From IMG/VR virus record IMGVR_UViG_2541047695_000003: a stretch of DNA of 34,489 nucleotides; one strand, 5' to 3'. Numbering within the stretch: position 1 is the stretch's first letter; the number at the start of each line of letters is the position of its first letter. The notes under the pieces are model-generated. The model was given only the letters and a program-made list of their open reading frames with translations. It was not told the DNA's origin and did no database searches. The position numbers and the translations under genes were made by a program. Shown in pieces: positions 3,310 through 33,072 of the stretch. This stretch comes from a virus. Taxonomy: Duplodnaviria > Heunggongvirae > Uroviricota > Caudoviricetes.

Positions 3310-3398
3310 AATACAATCACCTTTCATAATAACAAGAATTTTCTCTTTATAAATAATAGTGAACTTACTTGATTCACTTTCTTTTAGAGGATACCACT

Positions 3399-3848
3399 AT
3401 GATCAATACTAAAACTCCTTTCGTACTTCTGGGTCTGGACTCTGAAAACTATGGTAACTTCCATATGCTAGAAGTTTTCGCTCATCGTGGTTATAACATC
3501 ATTCGTCATTCCGAAGACTCCAACTACTCAACTGCTTTCTACGCTTTAAAACGAAATGGTCGTCCTACTGTGATCATCGACTGTTTTACTGATGAGGGTC
3601 GTCTTCAATACAACGATATTCCAGCAATTATTGTTCGTGATGATCTGCCGTTTCAAGTCCGTTCCGGTGACATTGACCTGGGTAGCTTCTTGACTCTTCG
3701 TGAACTGGATGAAGCAATGTTTAATTACGGTAAAGAAACCGCTCAGGAAGCCCCAGAACAAGATGAGGAAGACGAAGACTACGCACCAATCGCTTTCTCT
3801 TCTCACGGTGGCTTCTACGGTTACGACGAAGGCTTAGATATGCTGTAA
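3399..3848 (+). CDS. Hypothetical early protein (149 aa) with strongly acidic C-terminal tail
   Basis: ATG at 3399 (MINTKTPFVLLG...) with GAGGA SD; the track ORF starts 10 codons earlier without an RBS. C-terminus EAPEQDEEDEDYAPIAF... is acidic. Confidence 0.7.
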   Translation: MINTKTPFVLLGLDSENYGNFHMLEVFAHRGYNIIRHSEDSNYSTAFYALKRNGRPTVIIDCFTDEGRLQYNDIPAIIVRDDLPFQVRSGDIDLGSFLTLRELDEAMFNYGKETAQEAPEQDEEDEDYAPIAFSSHGGFYGYDEGLDML

Positions 3849-14180: not shown

Positions 14181-17100
14181 ATGCAGTCGATCCAATTTAA
14201 ACGAACAAATGTTTCTGGCAAAAAACCAACGCCGGAACAATTACAGGTCGGTGAGGTAGCAATCAACCTTAAAGACCATGTTATTTTTACCAAAGACCGA
14301 GATCATGAAGTAGTTCAAATCTCTGTTTCTCCTGAAACTCACGCGGCACTAGAATCTAAAGTTGATGCTAATAAAAAAGAACTGGATAGCACAATTGCAG
14401 TAAATGACCGCAATATTCACGCTAAAGTAGATGAAATTAAACAAACTACTGATGCAACCATCGCAGCAAATCACGCAGAAATTAACAATAAAGTTGATGT
14501 AATTAAACGCGAAACCGACGCGACAATCGAGGCCAATAAAAATAAAGCTGCTTCCGATCTTGCTGGTGTTAAAGCTGAATTGTCGGATACCATCAACGCT
14601 AATAAAAATGCGGCTGCTGTAGCAACTCAGGAACTGGACACCCGCATCAATAAAAAAGTTGATGATATTAAATCCCGTACCGATGCAACCATCGCAAGCA
14701 ATGACAAAGCAATCAATGACAAAGTTGATTTGATTAAGGCAGAAACTGACCGCACTATCGCAGCAAATCACGCCTATGCGGAAAATCAGTTAACTGACAC
14801 CTACAATAACCTTACTGGTGTGATTGCAGCCAATAAGCAAGAGGCAGCGGATAACGTCGCAGCATTAACCCGTGATGTTGAAGCCAAAAATACAGCAATT
14901 CATAGCAAAGTTGACAATAACAAGTCTTACACTGATTCTGAATTGGCACGTTTAGAAAGCCGTATTGATGCAGCCGATGGATCTGCTGATGGCAAGTACA
15001 TCAAAAAACACGTAAACACTTATACTGATGGTTATTTGCTGTCTAAGACCGCAAACTATTTTGATGATCCAAATGCGCGTAATCTTGATTACTTTGGTGC
15101 ATTCCGCATGAATGACCTGGCGGGTCATATTGCAATGATCTTGCATGTTCCGCATCCATCTGGTGTTAATCATGCTCGTGGCTTCGAGTTCACTTATGGG
15201 TCTAATCCACATGCTACTGTAAGAACATACGGCTATGATGAATTGGGACATTTGGCATATTCTCACCGCATGTATCATGAAGGTGATAAACCTACTCCGG
15301 CTGAAATTGGCGCATATTCGAAAGCAGAAATTGACCGACTGTTCCAGAAGACGCTTAATTTTGGTATCGAGGGTGGTTGGTTTAAACTAGGCACTTTGAC
15401 AATGCCACAACAACACGGTCGCACGGCTAAGATCCGTTTGGTTGGTGGTAACGGTTATAACGTAGGACATAATGGACAAGCCAATATTATCGAATTGGTG
15501 ATTCGATGCGGCAACAATAGCCCGAAAGGTGTTGTATTCAATGCGTATTATACTATTTGGCATCATGAACAACATTTTTGCGCTATTCCAACCGATGGCG
15601 ACAATTACGATCTTTACGCTTACTACGGTGCACATACAGGATTTGTTTTAGCAGAATATCAAGTTTCTTCCGGTGGTGTTTCTTTAAACCTGTTGGATAC
15701 TCCTGAATATCTGGGTGGTGAAAAACCTGTTGCAGATGAAATTTTTGATGCTCTTAACATTTCATCGTTCAATAACTTTAGCAACCGTGGGACGTTAAAT
15801 TTTGCTGGCAATCATCAAGGCCAATATGATATTGAGCATTTAAACGAACAACCGACAAATGCTAAAAAGATGTTGCGTCGCTTCCGTAGTTGTGCACCAG
15901 CTACAATCTGGCATGAGACAGTTGATGATAACGCATATCGTCTTGCTACTGGATACGAAGATACAAATCAGGAATTATTGCTGTCAGCAACATCCGGGTT
16001 ACATGTCAAGAAATTAACATTGGATGGCGGTGTTACTGGAAATTCTGGTATTGATATTCGTCGAGGACCAAACGAATCAAGCCATTTTAATTTCATGGAT
16101 TATCGCACTGGACAAGATGTTCGTAATGGCTGGTTTGGCTTCGGTGATGGTCAGACCAAAGATTTTATTTGGTGGAACGATAACGGTCAAAACTCTATAA
16201 ACCTGATTGAAGATGGTGAATTGCATATTACTGGCGGTAAAGGCCAGAAAATTGTAATGAATAGCGAAGTTGCATTATCTGAAAATGCTCGTTTGGCTGT
16301 CAAAGGTGGTAACTATGGTTTAATCCTTCGTAATGATGGTTCTAGCTTCCATATTCTTACTACCGATTTAAAAGATTCCTTTGGGACGTGGAACACTCGT
16401 AGACCATTTAGTTATGATTTCGCCGAAGGTGGATTAGATCTAGGTGGCACAGCTACCGCACGCTGTTTACATCTGGGAATTGATGGTAGCACCCGCATCG
16501 AAGATAATATGGTGTTTAGATCAGGGTCTCGTCAGTCAATGGACTATATTGAATTAATCCATTGGGGTAACAGTAATACCGCTCGTAACAACGTTTTGAG
16601 TATGAAAGACTCGAAAGGATTCCTTGCTGAATTTGAACGCGTGGGGGGTACTAACGGCGTTAAAACCAGATTCTTTGGCGAAACATTCACTGACGGTACA
16701 TTATACCTAAATCAGATGAATAATAGCTCTGAACGATTCTCTATCAATAACTGGGGAAATTCAGAAGTTGGTCGCGCGGCAGTGATGGAAGTCGGTGATT
16801 CCAAAGGTTATCACTTCTATACTGAACGTAGGACAGATAACAGTTTGATGTTTGATGTTGCTGGCGCTTTTACTGTGCATGGACCTTCCGGGATTACTAT
16901 CAAAAACTCTGCTGGTGCTCGCCACGTCTGGTTTAGAGATGATAGCGATACGGAAAAGGCTGTTATCTGGGCTACAGATGAGGGTATTTTACATATTCGC
17001 AATAACCACGGTGGACAATTTACACATCACTTCCAGGGCGCGATGATTAAACTGGAAGGGCGTGTTCCTTATGCCGCAGATCAAGGACTTATCCGTGGTG

Positions 17101-29507: not shown

Positions 29508-29861
29508 ATGTTAAGTAAGCATTTTTCTCGCAAGGAATTTAAATGTAAATGCGGAAAATGTGATTATGATACAATCGACGCTGAATTACTGGTGATTCTT
29601 GAGGATGTACGAGAGCACTTCGGTAAACCAGTGATTATTAACAGTGGCAACCGTTGCCCGACTCATAACAAGAATGTAGGCGGGGCAGCCAATAGCTATC
29701 ACGTTCGAGGCCGCGCGGCTGACATTGTTATCAAGGGTGTCTCGCCTGATATTGTTCATGCTTATCTTGATGGGAAATATCCTACTCAATACGGCTTAGG
29801 AAAATATAAAACTTTTACGCATATTGATTCCAGATCAAAAAAATCACGGTGGAATGGATAA
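29508..29861 (+). CDS. Endolysin, peptidase M15 family (L-alanyl-D-glutamate peptidase-like, 117 aa)
   Basis: SRKEF-x-CKCG...SGNRCPTHN...SYHVRGRAADIVI...THID matches the zinc-peptidase M15 signature found in small Gram-negative phage endolysins; strong terminator follows. Confidence 0.8.
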   Translation: MLSKHFSRKEFKCKCGKCDYDTIDAELLVILEDVREHFGKPVIINSGNRCPTHNKNVGGAANSYHVRGRAADIVIKGVSPDIVHAYLDGKYPTQYGLGKYKTFTHIDSRSKKSRWNG

Positions 29862-30225
29862 AACAAAAGCGCCTCTGGTGGGCGCTTTTTTGTTAGAATA
29901 TGCTGGCGATGTTAGCTATATTTCTGACCATTTTTTCATTATAGACAAATATACCGCAGATGATAAAGTTGTATTCGACGAAGTTGATCCGTCTCTGGTT
30001 GAAGCAATGAAAGAACCTGAGATCGTCATTGAAGAAACAAAAGAAGAATCTCCAGCAGTTGAACCAGTGGTCGAAGAAGTTAAGTCAGATGTTGAAGAAG
30101 CACCGGAAGTTAAAGTGGAATCTCCGGTAGCCAACATTTTCTCTGACGAAGCAGAACATCGTTCCCCAGCACATGACACTGATTCATTTTGCGATCTTAC
30201 TGGTTTCCAAAACTACAATAATTAA
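29824..30225 (+). CDS. Acidic hypothetical protein; start uncertain (first in-frame ATG after the terminator is at 30007)
   Basis: Track ORF overlaps the endolysin 3' end and the terminator hairpin, so the real start is probably downstream (TTG 29890 or ATG 30007); the Glu/Val/Pro-rich product could also be non-coding. Confidence 0.3.
   Translation: MIPDQKNHGGMDKTKAPLVGAFLLEYAGDVSYISDHFFIIDKYTADDKVVFDEVDPSLVEAMKEPEIVIEETKEESPAVEPVVEEVKSDVEEAPEVKVESPVANIFSDEAEHRSPAHDTDSFCDLTGFQNYNN
29868..29892 (+). terminator. Rho-independent terminator (AGCGCC-loop-GGCGCT plus TTTTTTG)
   Basis: 6-bp GC stem, 7-nt loop, T6 run directly after the endolysin stop; marks the end of the late operon. Confidence 0.75.
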
Positions 30226-30271
30226 TTCTTATAAATAGTAGTGAATATTATTTTATTGAGGATTCACTACT

Positions 30272-31270
30272 ATGAATACTACTTTAGCAAAGGATATCGA
30301 ATTTACCGCAAAAAGCAAACGTGCGACCCCTCCGGTCGAATATGAAACCAGAATCATTAAAGTTTGTCAAGTGCATGGATGGTTATACAGTGGTTTTGTG
30401 CTTCCTGTAAAGAAACCATTCCAGAACACCAAAGTTTGCATAGAAGTTAACGGAAAGGTTAAAACGCCATGTATTAGTCATGTTCTAACTGGTCAGTTTA
30501 CTGGCAAAGATAGAGTATCACCGCCTAAGAAGAAGTTTAGATTTACCGAAGAAGAACACTTAGAAAACGCTCGCAAGTTCTACAAGCCGATAGGGTGGGA
30601 TGTGTTAGGTCTGGCTGAACCTTATCAGGGTGTTGACACTAAACTAATTCTTCGTTGTAAGTGCCACGGAAAGATTCACAAGAAAGGTGATTTACACAAT
30701 AACCGCAGACAAGGCGGGTTAACATGCCCTTTGGTTAGGGGTGTACTTAAATCAATTCAGAATGGTAGAAAACAGGTTATCAGAAACAAGTTTGCACAGC
30801 GCCCTATGCACTTTTATCTAATTCGTGTTGGCGAGAAGTTTTTCAAATATGGAATTACCACTCGCAAAGATCCGATGCAACGGGTAAGAGAACACCAGAA
30901 GCACACCAGCGAGAAAATCACCTTTGAATGCTCACATTTGTTTAACATTGGATGGAAAGCTGGTGATTTAGAAATGGGGATTAAAAAGAATATTCAGGGC
31001 AAGAAAATCCCACGTAAGGTAATGAATAGCGGATTCACAGAAACGCTACCGATTAGCAAGCTGAAAGATGTTAAATCATTCATCAATGAATACATCCACA
31101 CCAACCCATCTAAGCCAATGTATTTTGATGATACCAACGCAATCAATCTGAACAACTACATTAGTGATGAAGACATAGAACGAGATTTATCGCAGTGGAT
31201 GAATGCACCGTTAGCTGATTTAACACCGGAAGACTTAGAACTCGATTTAAGCCCTTTAGAGGCTCTTTAA
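30272..31270 (+). CDS. T5orf172 / GIY-YIG-like domain protein with N-terminal Cys/His-rich region (332 aa)
   Basis: HFYLIRVGEKFFKYGITTRKDPMQRVREH matches the T5orf172 (MUG113) signature of the GIY-YIG superfamily as I recall it; N-terminal CQVHGW...C...CKCHGKIHKKGD suggests a zinc-binding module; GAGGA SD. Confidence 0.7.
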   Translation: MNTTLAKDIEFTAKSKRATPPVEYETRIIKVCQVHGWLYSGFVLPVKKPFQNTKVCIEVNGKVKTPCISHVLTGQFTGKDRVSPPKKKFRFTEEEHLENARKFYKPIGWDVLGLAEPYQGVDTKLILRCKCHGKIHKKGDLHNNRRQGGLTCPLVRGVLKSIQNGRKQVIRNKFAQRPMHFYLIRVGEKFFKYGITTRKDPMQRVREHQKHTSEKITFECSHLFNIGWKAGDLEMGIKKNIQGKKIPRKVMNSGFTETLPISKLKDVKSFINEYIHTNPSKPMYFDDTNAINLNNYISDEDIERDLSQWMNAPLADLTPEDLELDLSPLEAL

Positions 31271-31285
31271 TACAATTAAATTAAA

Positions 31286-31308
31286 AAGGGGTACAGATGT
31301 ACCCCTTA
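31286..31308. terminator. Bidirectional terminator hairpin (AAGGGGTACA-GAT-TGTACCCCTT) between convergent genes
   Basis: Perfect 10-bp stem, 3-nt loop, A/T-rich on both sides; sits between the stops of 30272-31270 (+) and 31344-33023 (-). Confidence 0.55.
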
Positions 31309-31343: not shown

Positions 31344-33023
31344 TTAAATTCCAAATTCCTGTAATGGACCTGGTATTTCCTCTTCTGGTTTCCAGTTCTT
31401 ATCTGTCAGCATGTCTAAACATGGATGCAGAACAAGCCCGTTGCTCTCCAGAATCTGCCTATCATTGATAGTTTTCAAATCAATGAATATCCGGCCTTTC
31501 CTCGTTCCTCTTGAATTTTCTATTACAACTCTCTGGGTCTTTCCATCGATGTATTCCAGCACAAACAAGTTTTTATTTCTGTCAATCCTGCTACACCCGA
31601 TCCGCTTTAGAGCTTGCTTAATCTTAAACCGGACCTTTAGTCGTTCCTCGTTATAAACATCTTCTAAATCAAATTCTGCGAGCTTCTCCCAGCCTTGAGA
31701 GTCCACAGAATACATTTCCTCTTCTGCCATCTTGATCTGATTGTAGAGTGTTTCACGCTCGCTATTGAGGGTAGTAATCTGATCGGCTAGCTCCTTCGTT
31801 GCTCCTGTCATAGCAGAAAGGGCAATCAGGTTATCAATCTTGCGTGATATTTCATCAACCTGTACTTTCAACGCCGGAACCGGATTAGCCTTGTCCTCAG
31901 CAATCCATATTTTATCAGCCAGCAATTGCAATACAGCTTTCTCTAATTGATCACCTCGAAAACTCCAGTTTGGATGCTCGCAATCAAGTCTACGTGAACG
32001 GGTCGCATCACATGTATAACGATACTGGTCAGAACGTTTGTTCGTTCCCTTCACTTTAACCATAGCGCAACCGCAATGATCACATTTCAATAGGCCAATA
32101 CCACTAAGCAGGGGGATCGGTTTAACTTCTTCCTTGTCTCCAAAGTTCCATGCTCTAGCACCAATATTTTTCTTAAGGTGATAGAACGTAGCATCATCAA
32201 TAACACGAGGGTAATAATCCTTTAACTCATAGTTAACACCATCTACAGAGACTTCCTTGATACCAATCAAAGCGCGGGTATGGAACAACCTTTCAACCAT
32301 TGCCCGTGACCATTTTGAATGCTTCTTGTTGCTTACTGCTGGTGGCGGTGTATATGTCTCGTTAAGGTGATCCAGTATCTCGGCGGTTGAACGTCCATTC
32401 TTCCGTAATTCCACAATCTCCTGAACAACAGGGAAGTATGTAGGATGAGGCAACACATAACCGGAAGTGGTATCCGTCCACCACATATTCTTTCCAACTT
32501 CCTCGATTGCCACTGCCGGATTCTGGGGATTTTCTTGATGGGCTTTAATCTTAATCAGTGCGCTTGAGTTAGTACGATTGCGCTTAGTCTGGCTTTCCTC
32601 ATTACCACGGATGAATAAAAGGATGGAGAACATCAGGTCCATCGGGTTAGCGGTAACAGTATCCAGCGAGTAGATCTTGTTATCCATGCCAGTAACAATG
32701 GTTATTCCCCTACGGATGATTGAAAGGAATAACTCCTGCGCACTGACAATATCGGCACGGGATAAGCGGTCCAAGTTTTCAATGAATAGCCAGCTACCAA
32801 CAGGAACGGATCTACCAATTGCATCAAGGAAACGAGATAGCGCCCCTGTTTTAGAGTTAGCACCCTTAAACGCAGATACACCCAGATCCTGATAATCATT
32901 TACCAGTTCAAGGTCATACTTTGCCGCAACCTCTCTCGCCATCCTGATTTGTCGTTCATAACTCGAACCATCATTCTGACGCATAGACGAGAAGCGAATA
33001 TACGAATACAGTTTAGTTTTCAT
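31344..33023 (-). CDS. Large serine recombinase (serine integrase, 559 aa)
   Basis: N-terminus MKTKLYSYIRFSS...Q with catalytic-Ser resolvase-type domain, then a recombinase domain, Cys cluster (CDHCGC...C-x-A...CEH) and C-terminal coiled-coil, the architecture of phiC31/Bxb1-type integrases. Start taken at ATG 33023 rather than the upstream TTG 33038 of the track. Confidence 0.9.
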   Translation of the reverse strand: MKTKLYSYIRFSSMRQNDGSSYERQIRMAREVAAKYDLELVNDYQDLGVSAFKGANSKTGALSRFLDAIGRSVPVGSWLFIENLDRLSRADIVSAQELFLSIIRRGITIVTGMDNKIYSLDTVTANPMDLMFSILLFIRGNEESQTKRNRTNSSALIKIKAHQENPQNPAVAIEEVGKNMWWTDTTSGYVLPHPTYFPVVQEIVELRKNGRSTAEILDHLNETYTPPPAVSNKKHSKWSRAMVERLFHTRALIGIKEVSVDGVNYELKDYYPRVIDDATFYHLKKNIGARAWNFGDKEEVKPIPLLSGIGLLKCDHCGCAMVKVKGTNKRSDQYRYTCDATRSRRLDCEHPNWSFRGDQLEKAVLQLLADKIWIAEDKANPVPALKVQVDEISRKIDNLIALSAMTGATKELADQITTLNSERETLYNQIKMAEEEMYSVDSQGWEKLAEFDLEDVYNEERLKVRFKIKQALKRIGCSRIDRNKNLFVLEYIDGKTQRVVIENSRGTRKGRIFIDLKTINDRQILESNGLVLHPCLDMLTDKNWKPEEEIPGPLQEFGI

Positions 33024-33030
33024 ACCATTT

Positions 33031-33072
33031 CCAAACAAAAACGCCCCTACCGCGTATTATAACGATAGGGGC
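33031..33072 (-). terminator. Hairpin GCCCCTA...TAGGGGC followed by U-rich tract on minus strand
   Basis: 7-bp stem with 16-nt loop; minus-strand downstream GTTTTTGTTTGG; sits between 33087-33506 and the recombinase start and overlaps the alternative TTG start. Confidence 0.4.

What the first reader, a model, noticed from the sequence alone, without database searches (positions are those of the whole stretch)
30272..31270. T5orf172 (GIY-YIG-like) domain protein with a Cys/His-rich N-terminus between the lysis cassette and the integrase
The central FYLIRVGEKFFKYGITTRKDPMQRVREH segment matches the T5orf172/MUG113 signature. The N-terminus has CQVHGW...C...CKCHGK spacing suggestive of a zinc-binding DNA-recognition module. 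It sits after the late-operon terminator, convergent with the serine recombinase, a typical accessory (moron or anti-defence/defence) position. T5orf172 proteins are poorly characterised, with reported roles including homing-endonuclease-like and regulatory functions.
Basis: partly seen in the sequence, partly recalled or inferred. Interest (0 to 1): 0.55.

Follow-up and report, generated by a model that had tools for sequence, protein, structure and literature searches.

The report
Prophage homing-type nuclease beside T4-like DNA
The gene encodes a site-specific DNA-cutting enzyme of a selfish "homing endonuclease" type known from lytic phages, but here it sits in a dormant E. coli prophage beside DNA borrowed from T4-like phages and behind a T4-style "late" switch, suggesting it may act when such a phage attacks.

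Summary
The ORF (30272-31270, +, 332 aa) is real. It is a divergent member of the CapR-repeat + T5orf172/MUG113 (GIY-YIG superfamily) homing-type endonucleases. Direct Pfam hits are below threshold. The assignment rests on PHROG 681, BLAST to T5.141, relatives that pass Pfam, GIY-YIG fold matches and invariant catalytic residues.

The N-terminus holds two CapR-like repeats. Only the second keeps three of the four canonical cysteines, so zinc binding is unproven.

The endolysin-to-serine-recombinase slot of this prophage lineage is an island of Krischvirus (RB49-like, T4-type) DNA plus one or two T5orf172 genes. The window keeps 256 bp of the inh gene at 98% identity. Relatives carry longer inh, hoc or uvsW pieces. 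Alleles are swapped independently of the backbone and decay by deletion.

The gene is preceded by a T4-type late-promoter box and a hairpin occluding its start codon, as in T-even homing endonucleases. This element is conserved, with covariation, across diverged alleles.

My best model is a nuclease that is silent in the lysogen and made when a Krischvirus infects. This is unproven, because a homologous element precedes a widespread gene of unknown function elsewhere in the prophage. Novelty: a new variant of a known kind.

The parts
29508..29861 (+). Endolysin (Peptidase_M15_3 / D-Ala-D-Ala carboxypeptidase family). It forms the left, conserved border of the variable slot.
   Evidence: RefSeq annotation of relatives. 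PF08291 on the orthologues. 90-99% DNA identity in many E. coli relatives.
29865..29889 (.). Hairpin GCGCC-N7-GGCGC with T-runs on both sides. This is the end of the late/lysis operon.
   Evidence: Terminator-like site. The sequence is shown and is conserved in PI7 and EC24.
29953..30208 (+). Internal fragment of a Krischvirus (RB49-like T4-type phage) inh gene, which encodes the prohead-protease inhibitor. In this window it is a relic: it lacks the 5' part and 56 bp at the 3' end that strain EC24 retains.
   Evidence: 97-98% identity to 48 Krischvirus genomes, with sharp borders. EC24 holds 415 bp at 98.8%. The EC24 ORF matches phrog_1051, Inh, E=4e-21. The deletions relative to EC24 are visible in alignment A2.
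30230..30237 (+). TATAAATA box, an exact match to the T4-family late-promoter consensus (-13 to -6). The predicted start of transcription is about 30243-30244.
   Evidence: No sigma-70 -35/-10 pair was found here. Across 15 alleles the box is TATAAATA, AATAAATA or CTAAATA, which is the tolerance reported for T4-like phages (PMC1524935, PMC2988020). That it functions as a promoter is inferred.
30235..30272 (+). RNA hairpin. The 5' arm (about 30235-30246) overlaps the box and the predicted start site. The Shine-Dalgarno GAGG (30258-30261) lies at the loop/stem border. The 3' arm (30261-30272) covers the spacer and the A of the AUG.
   Evidence: MFE -15.2 kcal/mol, z=-3.7, 0 of 200 shuffles as stable. 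Across 13 alleles 83% of cells are paired, against 15-59% when the partner is slid. Three pairs change on both sides and there are several G-U pairs. Covariation is 0.167 against 0.111, reached by 1 of 500 shuffles.
30272..31270 (+). The ORF, 332 aa: a CapR-repeat + T5orf172/MUG113 (GIY-YIG) homing-type endonuclease.
   Evidence: dN/dS is 0.09-0.24 between alleles where dS is measurable.
30323..30511 (+). CapR-like repeat 1 (aa ~18-80): one helix and three strands, with no conserved metal ligands.
   Evidence: Structure model, pLDDT about 90. Alignments A3 and A5.
30533..30736 (+). CapR-like repeat 2 (aa ~88-155) with C129-x-C131-H132 ... C152-P. The fourth canonical Cys is replaced by V155.
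   Evidence: Pfam CapR at aa 102-134, E=0.014 and below cut-off. Aligns to the strong CapR repeats of T5.141. The residues are invariant in the 9 closest homologs.
30797..31105 (+). T5orf172/GIY-YIG nuclease core (aa ~176-278): Y182 (GIY), K192-Y-G194 (YIG), R204, E234, and E257 in a G-x-TETLP motif.
31106..31267 (+). Low-confidence acidic C-terminal tail. Its last ~25 codons (PLADLxPEDLELDLSPLEAL) are conserved, also at the DNA level, among alleles that are otherwise unalignable. I infer that it serves as the right-hand recombination border of the cassette.
   Evidence: pLDDT 49-69. Alignment A3. 84-88% DNA identity over only the last 6-8% of the gene in L012, L022 and L028. The tail is retained in the PI7 and ETEC4090 deletion alleles.
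31286..31307 (.). Hairpin AAGGGGTAC-N4-GTACCCCTT between the convergent nuclease and recombinase genes. The T-rich tail lies on the minus strand.
   Evidence: Conserved at 90-97% in relatives.
31344..33038 (-). Large serine recombinase (integrase). It forms the right, conserved border of the slot.
   Evidence: Resolvase + Recombinase + Zn_ribbon_recom domains. In PEC41 and EC24 the prophage abuts a truncated ycdX gene.

Best explanation
The gene encodes a free-standing, homing-type, site-specific DNA endonuclease. Two CapR-like repeats recognise DNA, and a T5orf172 (GIY-YIG superfamily) domain cuts it.

The gene belongs to a small nuclease island at the lysis/integrase junction of a ~35-kb temperate prophage lineage of Enterobacterales. 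That island is built around DNA from the uvsW-inh-hoc neighbourhood of Krischvirus (RB49-like, T4-type lytic phages).

Expression is governed by a T-even-style cassette. Read-through transcripts from the prophage late operon fold a hairpin over the spacer and the AUG, so they are not translated. A late-promoter box ([T/A]ATAAATA) overlaps the 5' arm. Transcripts started there by a T4-type gp55 RNA polymerase would lack that arm and would be translatable.

The enzyme is therefore predicted to be silent in the lysogen and to be made late in infection by a Krischvirus. Krischvirus DNA is unmodified and homologous to the island. The enzyme would cut phage DNA in or near uvsW-inh-hoc, and the break would be repaired against the prophage copy. 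This would give gene conversion or marker exclusion, and would explain the 98-99% identical inh fragment.

Shown: gene, family, fold, conserved catalytic residues, slot variability, Krischvirus DNA, conserved box and hairpin, purifying selection.
Inferred: promoter use, trigger, target and outcome.
For: Family and activity:
- PHROG 681, E=4e-20.
- T5.141, 1e-15.
- Relatives in the same slot pass the Pfam cut-offs for CapR, T5orf172 and MUG113, and one aligns to ours at 4e-20.
- 33 of 40 relatives hit CapR and 16 hit MUG113.
- Invariant Y182, K192, G194, R204, E234 and E257.
- dN/dS 0.09-0.24.

Island of Krischvirus DNA:
- inh fragment at 98% in the window and 98.8% over 415 bp in EC24.
- Other alleles have inh' at ~79%, hoc' at ~72% and uvsW at ~74%. 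The only matches to the inh' and hoc' pieces are the same 59 Krischvirus genomes, and the best uvsW matches are also Krischvirus.
- Pfam UvsW_N, UvsW-1 and Phage_Inh_N, and PHROG Inh and Hoc, on the slot ORFs.
- The gene order matches Krischvirus uvsW.1-uvsW-inh-hoc.

Resident in the prophage rather than a fresh import:
- No relative above 35% identity in 50,697 phage records.
- IMG/VR relatives are all ~35-kb prophage contigs.
- Diverged alleles in E. coli, Salmonella and Proteus occupy the same slot.

Cassette swapping: the recombinase is 93-97% identical where the nuclease gene is 65-75% identical or unalignable.

Regulation:
- Exact TATAAATA with no -35 element.
- Box variants T/A at -13 and CTAAATA mirror published T4-family tolerance.
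- Krischvirus Phi1 has AATAAATA about 45 nt upstream of its own inh start codon.
- The hairpin is stable and covaries.
- The layout matches T4 I-TevI/II/III, segB and Aeh1 mobE (PMC2988022).
- RB49 DNA is unmodified (PMC4041780).
- The prophage also shares 79-94% identical tail-fibre DNA with T4-like phages, so physical exchange between the two does occur.
Against: - A homologous copy of the box + hairpin + RBS element lies upstream of a widespread gene of unknown function found in E. coli/Shigella genomes (orf149, 3399..3848). Five further TATAAATA boxes lie upstream of other non-structural ORFs. The box may therefore be a promoter class used by the prophage itself.
- No T4-like phage carrying this nuclease is known, so a T-even origin of the regulatory cassette is inferred from its design only.
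- With homology only in the middle (inh') or on one side (uvsW), the island cannot home into a Krischvirus genome by a simple double crossover.
- The window's own inh fragment is a decayed relic, and many relatives have deleted the nuclease gene. That fits a selfish gain-and-loss cycle as well as any host benefit.
- Covariation support is modest: 13 sequences, with the inner pairs of the stem often unpaired.
- No target site could be predicted.
- There is no experimental evidence for activity, zinc binding, expression or phenotype.
Confidence: 0.42

Rival explanations
1. It is an ordinary selfish homing endonuclease of the temperate phage family itself. It is expressed from a promoter native to the prophage during its own lytic growth. 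It cuts nuclease-free copies of the endolysin/recombinase junction in related co-resident or co-infecting temperate phages, and is copied in through the conserved flanks. The Krischvirus DNA is baggage from an old transfer.
For: - Conserved flanks can serve as homology arms: endolysin 90-99%, terminator and recombinase 87-99%.
- Patchy presence, in 18 of 60 genomes.
- A decay series runs from EC24 to the window allele to the PI7 deletion of 30018-31227.
- An empty site exists in ETEC4090.
- The conserved 3' tail acts as a crossover border.
- The same regulatory element lies upstream of orf149, and other TATAAATA boxes occur in the prophage.
- A further CapR/phrog_681 gene is inserted before the endolysin in ETEC4090 and L027.
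Against: - No sigma-70 -35 element or extended -10 accompanies the box.
- No sigma-like or late-activator gene is recognisable in the prophage.
- The hairpin would block translation of read-through transcripts from the prophage late operon.
- It does not explain the 98-99% identity of inh' to present-day Krischvirus when the adjacent nuclease genes are absent from all 59 Krischvirus genomes.
- It does not explain why every allele carries pieces of the same Krischvirus neighbourhood.
Confidence: 0.3
2. It is an infection-triggered anti-phage effector kept by the prophage for the benefit of the lysogen. The nuclease, possibly together with the truncated Inh protein in alleles that keep it, damages superinfecting Krischvirus and lowers its yield. 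In this reading it is a defence gene rather than a selfish element.
For: - It lies at a prophage end, in a variable accessory slot.
- Purifying selection acts on both the nuclease gene and inh'.
- inh' ORFs start at Inh Met50 in four diverged alleles, and three of them end at or near CPWW.
- The late-promoter logic would restrict a toxic nuclease to infected cells.
- GIY-YIG defence nucleases exist; PD-T4-3 appears among the fold matches.
Against: - No significant PADLOC match.
- Frequent loss of the gene.
- Purifying selection on inh' could have acted in the donor phages, with gene conversion refreshing the fragment.
- In the window itself inh' is truncated and fused to terminator sequence, so it is unlikely to be functional.
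- Late expression is a poor point at which to stop a lytic phage.
Confidence: 0.15
3. It is a decaying passenger with no current function: T4-like DNA, including a nuclease gene, picked up by illegitimate recombination and on its way to deletion.
For: - The relic state of inh' in the window.
- Deletion alleles are common.
- The prophage has also acquired T4-like tail-fibre DNA.
Against: - The ORF is intact in all alleles.
- dN/dS is 0.09-0.24.
- Catalytic residues are invariant across 40 relatives.
- The regulatory element is conserved, with compensatory changes.
- The nuclease is not found in any sequenced T4-like phage.
Confidence: 0.07
4. It is a domesticated DNA-binding regulator, like the satellite protein CapR. 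It would use its CapR repeats to repress or tune transcription, for example of the neighbouring recombinase or of an invading phage, and would no longer act as a nuclease.
For: - CapR homology in the N-terminal region.
- The precedents of PLE CapR and of I-TevI autorepression (PMC8096241 and PMC2988022).
- An inverted repeat overlaps its own promoter.
Against: - The complete nuclease domain is retained, with invariant Y, R and E residues.
- The G-U pairs in the stem fit an RNA structure better than a DNA operator.
- The CapR zinc site that is needed for CapR DNA binding is incomplete here.
Confidence: 0.06

Closest known systems
T5orf172-family homing endonucleases with repeated CapR-type DNA-binding domains, described in lytic phages (ICP1, T5-like and others; Barth, Dunham & Seed 2023, PMC10448857)
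   Same: - The same two-part architecture: N-terminal CapR-type repeats and a C-terminal T5orf172/MUG113 nuclease domain.
- Variable repeat number among relatives.
- Modular swapping of domains and alleles.
- Location at a boundary of genetic exchange between phages.
   Different: - It resides in a temperate prophage; the word 'prophage' does not occur in that paper's main text.
- The exchange partner is an unrelated lytic genus (Krischvirus).
- The protein is too divergent to pass the Pfam thresholds.
- The zinc site is incomplete.
Phage T5 gene T5.141 'endonuclease' (YP_006969)
   Same: It is one of the closest proteins in the phage collection (Shigella phage JK32 gives a stronger but partial match) and the one with an 'endonuclease' annotation: 27% identity over aa 88-278, BLASTP 1e-15. 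The match covers CapR repeat 2 and the nuclease core, including the G-x-TET motif.
   Different: - T5.141 has two strong CapR domains plus a treble-clef zinc finger, with complete CPxC motifs.
- It lies between tail genes of a lytic phage.
- It has no acidic tail.
T4 I-TevI, I-TevII, I-TevIII and segB, and Aeh1 mobE: the regulatory design (Edgell, Gibb & Belfort 2010, PMC2988022)
   Same: A late promoter is placed so that late transcripts lack the 5' arm of a hairpin that blocks translation initiation on longer transcripts. The enzymes belong to the GIY-YIG or HNH homing classes.
   Different: - Those genes sit in T-even genomes, where gp55 is always supplied. Here the cassette is in a prophage that encodes no recognisable gp55.
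- The hairpin here covers the spacer and the AUG more than the Shine-Dalgarno sequence itself.
PLE CapR, a domesticated endonuclease relative in a Vibrio phage satellite (Netter et al. 2021, PMC8096241)
   Same: - CapR-type DNA-binding module.
- Carried by an integrated element that interacts with a lytic phage and exchanges sequence with that phage's nuclease genes.
   Different: - CapR has lost the nuclease domain and acts as a repressor.
- Its four cysteines are essential for DNA binding. Here the nuclease domain is intact and one cysteine is missing.
GIY-YIG structure-specific and defence nucleases (SLX1; PD-T4-3, PDB 9u75)
   Different: There is no sequence-level relationship, the partner domains differ, and there is no PADLOC match.

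Membership tests
T5orf172 / MUG113 (Pfam PF10544 / PF13455, GIY-YIG clan) | Profile match above the curated threshold | tested here: not met
   MUG113 scores 13.4 bits against a cut-off of 22.3 (E=0.13), and there is no T5orf172 hit at E<=10. Relatives do pass: the L007 391-aa protein (MUG113 28.6, T5orf172 20.1) and L010 and L005 (T5orf172 22.4 and 21.1). 16 of 40 relatives hit MUG113 and 4 of 40 hit T5orf172.
T5orf172 / MUG113 (Pfam PF10544 / PF13455, GIY-YIG clan) | Significant homology to accepted members | tested here: met
   BLASTP 4e-20 to the Pfam-passing L007 protein. BLASTP 1e-15 to T5.141. PHROG 681 'endonuclease' 4e-20. The family profile finds 2003 representatives.
T5orf172 / MUG113 (Pfam PF10544 / PF13455, GIY-YIG clan) | GIY-YIG catalytic residues: Tyr of the first motif, the second motif, Arg, and the metal-binding Glu | tested here: met
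   Y182, K192-x-G194, R204 and E257 (plus E234) are invariant in 18 and in 40 sequences.
T5orf172 / MUG113 (Pfam PF10544 / PF13455, GIY-YIG clan) | GIY-YIG alpha/beta fold | tested here: met
T5orf172 / MUG113 (Pfam PF10544 / PF13455, GIY-YIG clan) | Metal-dependent DNA cleavage | not testable with these tools
   Needs purified protein.
CapR homology domain (PF21817) | Profile match above the curated threshold | tested here: inconclusive
   16 bits against a cut-off of 24.2, E=0.014, at aa 102-134. 33 of 40 relatives match. The region aligns to the CapR repeat of T5.141. BFVD hits are named CapR homology domain proteins.
CapR homology domain (PF21817) | Four cysteines, CxxC ... CxC, which are required for CapR DNA binding (PMC8096241) | tested here: not met
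   Repeat 2 has C129-x-C131 and C152-P-x-V155, with H132 conserved as a possible substitute. Repeat 1 has none of them.
Free-standing homing endonuclease gene | Modular DNA-binding + nuclease protein encoded between conserved genes, present in some genomes and absent from others at the same site | tested here: met
   It is present in 18 of the 60 genomes that hold the region. The empty (ETEC4090) and deleted (PI7) sites are defined to the base.
Free-standing homing endonuclease gene | Sits at a breakpoint of sequence similarity (co-conversion or exchange boundary) | tested here: met
   The backbone is 93-99% identical where the cassette is 65-75% identical or unalignable. The right-hand breakpoint lies inside the 3' tail. 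The border with Krischvirus DNA is sharp.
Free-standing homing endonuclease gene | Cleaves the nuclease-free allele and is copied into it | not testable with these tools
   Needs cleavage assays and crosses. The in silico search for a target resembling the operator region was negative.
T-even late-promoter/hairpin-controlled endonuclease genes | TATAAATA-type box immediately upstream, with no -35 element | tested here: met
   Exact box at 30230-30237. No sigma-70 site there. Conserved as [T/A]ATAAATA or CTAAATA in 15 alleles. It is not unique: there are 7 boxes in the window against 2.3 expected.
T-even late-promoter/hairpin-controlled endonuclease genes | Hairpin that occludes the translation start and whose 5' arm is missing from late transcripts | tested here: met
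   The geometry is read from the sequence: the 5' arm is 30235-30246 and the predicted +1 is about 30243.
T-even late-promoter/hairpin-controlled endonuclease genes | gp55-dependent transcription late in infection | not testable with these tools
   Needs RNA mapping in infected lysogens.
Known anti-phage defence systems (PADLOC-DB 2.0) | Match to a defence protein model | tested here: not met
   The only hit is PD-Lambda-1 at E=0.005, over 22 residues of the GIY motif. The partner nucleases hit nothing.

The most novel reading that the evidence does not exclude
A temperate prophage keeps a nuclease, together with a piece of the enemy's own genome, wired to the enemy's late-gene promoter. The weapon is silent and harmless in the lysogen. 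It is switched on by the gp55 RNA polymerase of an infecting Krischvirus (T4-type) phage, and it cuts that phage in the uvsW-inh-hoc region. The prophage-borne homologous fragment then serves as repair template, or bait. This would be inter-viral interference between a temperate and a virulent phage that uses a homing endonuclease and promoter mimicry. Several other TATAAATA-preceded prophage genes might belong to the same infection-sensing regulon.
Probability: 0.2. Interest if true: 0.8.

Novelty: new variant of a known kind. Interest (0 to 1): 0.6.

Why it matters
CapR/T5orf172 homing endonucleases have been described as agents that shape mosaicism among lytic phages and in phage-satellite conflicts. 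This case would extend them to the interface between a temperate prophage and an unrelated virulent phage genus.

It gives a concrete, datable trace of DNA exchange: 98-99% identical inh DNA flanked by nuclease genes that the lytic phage does not carry.

It also offers a simple testable idea, that a prophage gene can be placed under the late promoter of its host's predator.

If the model is true, it would add a trigger principle (promoter mimicry) to prophage-encoded interference. It would also help explain how T4-like genes such as uvsW, inh, hoc and the tail fibres enter temperate phage genomes.

If only the selfish-element reading holds, it is still a clean natural series of homing-endonuclease gain, allele replacement and decay in a prophage.

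Tried and rejected
1. NCBIfam gave no hit. Sequence search of the PDB gave nothing, with the single protein or with the family profile.
2. PADLOC gave no credible defence family.
3. I searched for the nuclease in lytic phages. tblastn against 50,697 phage records gives at most 35% identity, to T5, IrisVonRoten, Whisky and JK32. The partner nuclease gives at most 27%, in Klebsiella siphophages. DNA searches of the EC24 cassette find only the inh part. So I rejected a recent wholesale capture from a sequenced T4-like phage.
4. The Whisky (Krischvirus) T5orf172 gene has an ordinary TTGACA-17-TATAAT promoter and no comparable hairpin. The regulatory element is therefore not a general feature of Krischvirus T5orf172 genes.
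5. IMG/VR gave only prophage-type contigs. The JGI metagenome and GTDB species-genome scans found no relative. The first genome scan failed for lack of a conserved stretch, and the patterns used afterwards were narrow.
6. I tested whether the promoter/hairpin region resembles a site in Krischvirus uvsW-inh-hoc DNA or in nuclease-free prophage junctions, by analogy with the I-TevI operator and homing site. Scores did not exceed shuffled controls.
7. Base composition is uninformative: the whole prophage is 41.7% GC, like Krischvirus at about 40-41%.
8. The Proteus inh' allele has no close phage counterpart, only 73-76% identity over 80-94 bp. 'Every allele is freshly converted by a local T4-like phage' is therefore not supported by sampled genomes.
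9. I considered the inverted repeat as a terminator and rejected this, because there is no T-run and it overlaps the RBS and AUG.
10. I considered ORF 29824..30225 as a real gene. In the window it starts with TTG inside the endolysin gene and runs through the terminator hairpin, so I treat it as a relic.
Full report
**1. The observation**

The ORF at 30272-31270 (+) exists as described: ATG start, 332 aa, with the quoted peptide segments. A GAGG Shine-Dalgarno sequence lies 10 nt upstream of the ATG. The N-terminus M-x-T-x-[FL]-A-K-D-I is conserved in all homologs, so the start codon is sound.

The gene follows the endolysin (29508-29861; Peptidase_M15_3 in orthologues). A hairpin with flanking T-runs sits at 29865-29889. 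The gene is convergent with a large serine recombinase at 31344-33038, which has Resolvase, Recombinase and Zn_ribbon_recom domains. A second hairpin at 31286-31307 lies between the two genes.

The window is an E. coli chromosomal prophage. In relatives it is integrated next to a truncated ycdX gene. No plasmid record matches.

**2. What the protein is**

Direct Pfam evidence is weak. CapR homology domain scores E=0.014 and MUG113 scores E=0.13, both below the curated cut-offs, and T5orf172 gives no hit. NCBIfam and PDB sequence searches are empty.

The assignment is nevertheless secure, for these reasons:
- PHROG 681 'endonuclease' matches aa 87-292 at 4e-20.
- Phage T5 gene T5.141 'endonuclease' aligns over aa 88-278 (tblastn 1e-8; BLASTP 1e-15).
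- A 391-aa protein in the same slot of another E. coli strain passes the Pfam cut-offs for CapR, MUG113 and T5orf172. It aligns to our protein at 4e-20, including the nuclease core.
- A family profile finds 2003 representative clusters. Of 40 of these, 33 hit CapR, 16 hit MUG113 and 4 hit T5orf172.

The AlphaFold model (mean pLDDT 78.7) shows four parts:
- two alpha+beta repeats, at aa ~20-75 and ~93-145;
- a helical linker;
- a beta-beta-alpha-beta-alpha-beta-alpha core at aa 179-277;
- a low-confidence acidic tail.

Y182, K192, G194, R204, E234 and E257 are invariant across 40 relatives. Alleles differ with dN/dS of 0.09-0.24 where dS can be measured. The protein therefore looks like an active nuclease rather than a DNA-binding remnant.

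**3. The Cys/His-rich N-terminus**

The literature describes the CapR domain as a zinc finger with CxxC...24-26 aa...CxC, whose four cysteines are needed for DNA binding (PMC8096241; PMC10448857).

Here repeat 1 has none of these ligands. The conserved C32 lies in a predicted helix. Repeat 2 has C129-x-C131-H132 and C152-P-x-V155. The fourth cysteine is Val, Ile or Leu in the 13 closest homologs, whereas more distant relatives have CPxC.

**4. The surroundings: an island of T4-like DNA**

The 256 bp at 29953-30208, just upstream of the gene, are 97-98% identical to an internal part of the inh gene (prohead-protease inhibitor) of 48 Krischvirus genomes. Krischvirus phages are RB49-like, T4-type lytic phages. 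The borders of the match are sharp, and nothing else in 29000-33200 matches any phage record.

Relatives of the prophage show what this fragment is a remnant of:
- **Strain EC24** has, between endolysin and recombinase, a second T5orf172 gene (193 aa, minus strand; CapR + T5orf172 above cut-off). Next comes 415 bp of inh at 98.8% identity forming a 148-aa ORF (phrog_1051 Inh, 4e-21). Then comes the same 332-aa gene.
- **Other alleles** carry intact uvsW.1 and uvsW genes plus a ~189-aa T5orf172 gene (L010-L013, L007), a truncated uvsW (L027), a longer Inh fragment with the Pfam Phage_Inh_N domain (L029), or the C-terminal end of a Hoc-like gene (L026).

uvsW.1, uvsW, inh and hoc are neighbours, in that order, in Krischvirus genomes. 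For the inh and hoc pieces the only phage matches are the same 59 Krischvirus genomes, at about 79% and 72% identity. For uvsW the best of 1,318 matching phage records are also Krischvirus, at about 74%.

The nuclease genes themselves have no close relative in 50,697 phage records: at most 35% identity for ours and at most 27% for the partner. IMG/VR relatives are all ~35-kb prophage-type contigs. Scans of JGI metagenomes and GTDB species genomes found none.

**5. Dynamics of the slot**

The region is present in 60 of 5,426 complete E. coli genomes, and the 332-aa gene in 18 of them.

Backbone genes can be 93-99% identical while the nuclease gene is 65-75% identical, or unalignable except for its last ~80 nt. 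Cassette alleles are therefore replaced by recombination. The conserved acidic tail and terminator serve as the right-hand border.

A decay series is visible. EC24 has the full island. The window and PEC41 have lost the 193-aa gene, the 5' part of inh' and 56 bp at its 3' end. PI7-type genomes have additionally deleted 30018-31227, joining inh' to the last 14 codons of the nuclease ORF. ETEC4090 has an almost empty slot.

The inh' ORFs of EC24, Proteus, L024 and L025 all start at Inh Met50. Those of EC24, Proteus and L024 end at or near the CPWW motif, although they are only 53-95% identical to Krischvirus Inh. Their dN/dS is 0.09-0.37. This fits either selection on the fragment, or repeated gene conversion confined by the flanking nuclease genes.

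In the window, ORF 29824-30225 starts with TTG inside the endolysin gene and runs through the terminator hairpin. I regard it as a relic.

**6. Regulation**

The sequence directly upstream of the ATG reads cTTATAAATAgtagtgaat-N15-attcactactATG. It has these features:
- TATAAATA (30230-30237) is the exact T4 late-promoter consensus.
- No sigma-70 -35/-10 pair is found there.
- The inverted repeat folds at -15.2 kcal/mol (z=-3.7; 0 of 200 shuffles as stable). It pairs 30235-30246 with 30261-30272, that is, the last base of the Shine-Dalgarno sequence, the spacer, and the A of the AUG.

In 13 diverged alleles (37-100% protein identity), plus two further ones examined afterwards, the box sits at the same place. 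It reads TATAAATA, AATAAATA or, in two alleles, CTAAATA. The stem keeps 83% of cells paired, against 15-59% when the partner is slid. Three pairs change on both sides, and there are several G-U pairs. The covariation score is reached by 1 of 500 shuffles.

Published work places the T4 late promoter at -13 to -6. It reports A or T at -13 in most T4-like phages including RB49, and CTAAATA in Aeh1 (PMC1524935 and PMC2988020). Krischvirus Phi1 has AATAAATA about 45 nt upstream of its own inh start codon.

A start about 6 nt downstream of the box, near 30243, would remove most of the 5' arm of the hairpin. This is the design described for T4 I-TevI, I-TevII, I-TevIII and segB and for Aeh1 mobE (PMC2988022). 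RB49 DNA is unmodified cytosine DNA (PMC4041780). From my own knowledge, the exclusion of cytosine DNA from late transcription that operates in T4 should therefore not apply.

**7. Cautions**

- TATAAATA occurs 7 times in the window, against 2.3 expected. All copies lie in intergenic DNA upstream of non-structural ORFs.
- The copy at 3348 belongs to a clearly homologous box + hairpin + RBS element upstream of a 149-aa ORF (3399-3848). That ORF is a widespread E. coli/Shigella gene of unknown function. The exact 14-mer ATAAATA[AG]TAGTGA occurs only at these two places.
- No sigma-like factor is recognisable in the prophage.
- The box could therefore mark a promoter class used by the prophage itself. 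Alternatively, several prophage genes could respond to T4-type late transcription. This cannot be settled in silico.
- A Krischvirus T5orf172 gene (phage Whisky) uses an ordinary sigma-70-type promoter.
- A search for an operator-like resemblance between the promoter region and Krischvirus or empty-slot DNA was negative.
- Composition is uninformative.

**8. Interpretation**

Shown:
- a CapR-repeat/T5orf172 homing-type nuclease gene under purifying selection;
- its residence in a recombination-prone slot of a temperate prophage lineage;
- constant association with DNA from one neighbourhood of Krischvirus genomes, one piece of it exchanged very recently;
- a conserved T-even-style translational and promoter cassette.

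Inferred:
- that the promoter is read by gp55 RNA polymerase during Krischvirus infection;
- that the enzyme then cuts Krischvirus DNA near uvsW-inh-hoc;
- that repair against the prophage copy explains the near-identical inh fragment.

The main rival is ordinary homing among the temperate phages themselves, from a native promoter, with the T4-like DNA as baggage. A defence reading is a sharper version of the main model. Passenger and regulator readings are less likely, given the conservation of the catalytic residues and of the regulatory element.

The same prophage also shares 79-94% identical tail-fibre DNA with T4-like phages. This shows that the two kinds of phage do recombine. It makes the exchange itself less surprising, but it also makes the nuclease's position at an exchange boundary consistent with PMC10448857.

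**9. Verdict**

The finding is real and the family call is right. The protein is a new, divergent member of a known family. The setting is a new variant of a known kind: a temperate prophage, flanks from a lytic T4-type phage, and T-even late-gene control. It yields a directly testable hypothesis. Interest 0.6.

Noticed in passing
window 15044-18666 (ORF 14181..17705, 1174 aa, and ORFs 17744..18650): The prophage tail-fibre region is 79-94% identical at the DNA level to the long-tail-fibre distal subunit and downstream genes of T4-like phages. Examples are Krischvirus G37-3 at 87.5% over 3.4 kb, KFS-EC at 92.6%, and Tequatrovirus RB3/5/6/7/9 at 88%. This is a second locus of exchange between this temperate phage and T4-type phages.
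   Followed up: partly
window 3340-3401 and ORF 3399..3848: A second, homologous copy of the TATAAATA + hairpin + GAGGA-N-ACTATG element lies upstream of a 149-aa acidic-tailed protein of unknown function. That protein is widespread in E. coli and Shigella genomes (76 clusters).
   Followed up: partly
window 1661(+), 2026(-), 2226(-), 4313(+), 33548(-): Five further exact TATAAATA boxes, all intergenic and just upstream of non-structural ORFs. These include a 64-aa ORF, the Rha/Ant-like 268-aa gene, and a 139-aa ORF with an N-terminal hydrophobic stretch that looks like a signal peptide (not tested), preceded by gaggaaattctactATG. There are 7 boxes in the window against 2.3 expected.
   Followed up: partly
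L012/L013 1480-3845; L010/L011 1772-3846; L007 125-2172; L027 3758-4429: Relatives of the prophage carry intact UvsW.1 and UvsW helicase genes of T4 type (about 74% DNA identity to Krischvirus), or a truncated uvsW, in the same slot. Each is followed by a ~189-aa CapR+T5orf172 gene. Whether the prophage uses this helicase is unknown.
   Followed up: partly
L008 2075-3112 (ETEC4090) and L027 2336-3373: A further nuclease-like gene (345 aa; phrog_681 at 9e-43, weak CapR) is inserted between the 115-aa gene and the endolysin in some relatives. This is a second insertion site for this kind of gene in the same prophage.
   Followed up: no
window 31190-31270 and the same region in L012, L022, L028 and L006: The last ~25 codons of the nuclease ORF (PLADLxPEDLELDLSPLEAL) are conserved at both protein and DNA level among alleles that are otherwise unalignable. 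They survive in the deletion alleles. Whether this reflects a functional peptide or only a recombination border is open.
   Followed up: partly
L005 2992-3573(-), L012 3276-3845(-) versus window 30272-30340: The divergently transcribed partner nuclease appears, on reading its DNA, to start with an M-x-x-x-M-A-K-D-I-x-F-T-x-K-S motif like that of the 332-aa protein. The BLASTP alignment of the two N-termini is only marginal, E=0.02. A conserved CCTATAAG-N-TAAAGTGAGG lies upstream of the partner gene instead of a TATAAATA box.
   Followed up: no
L006 6711-7674; L027 8469-9996; L004/L005 right ends: Closely related prophages (recombinase 75-99% identical) sit at different chromosomal sites: ycdX in most, hicB/ydcR in PI7, and a cytosine/purine transporter locus in L027. 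This suggests shifts in serine-recombinase target choice.
   Followed up: no
whole window: The prophage is 41.7% GC throughout. From my own knowledge, that is far below the E. coli chromosome average. It is similar to Krischvirus loci (about 40-41%). Most of its ~6 kb early region consists of ORFs with no family match.
   Followed up: no
L028 4005-4457: In this allele the ORF in front of the nuclease gene (150 aa) is unrelated to Inh. By eye it looks like immunoglobulin-like repeats, possibly a Hoc-type fragment, but no PHROG or Pfam hit was obtained.
   Followed up: partly
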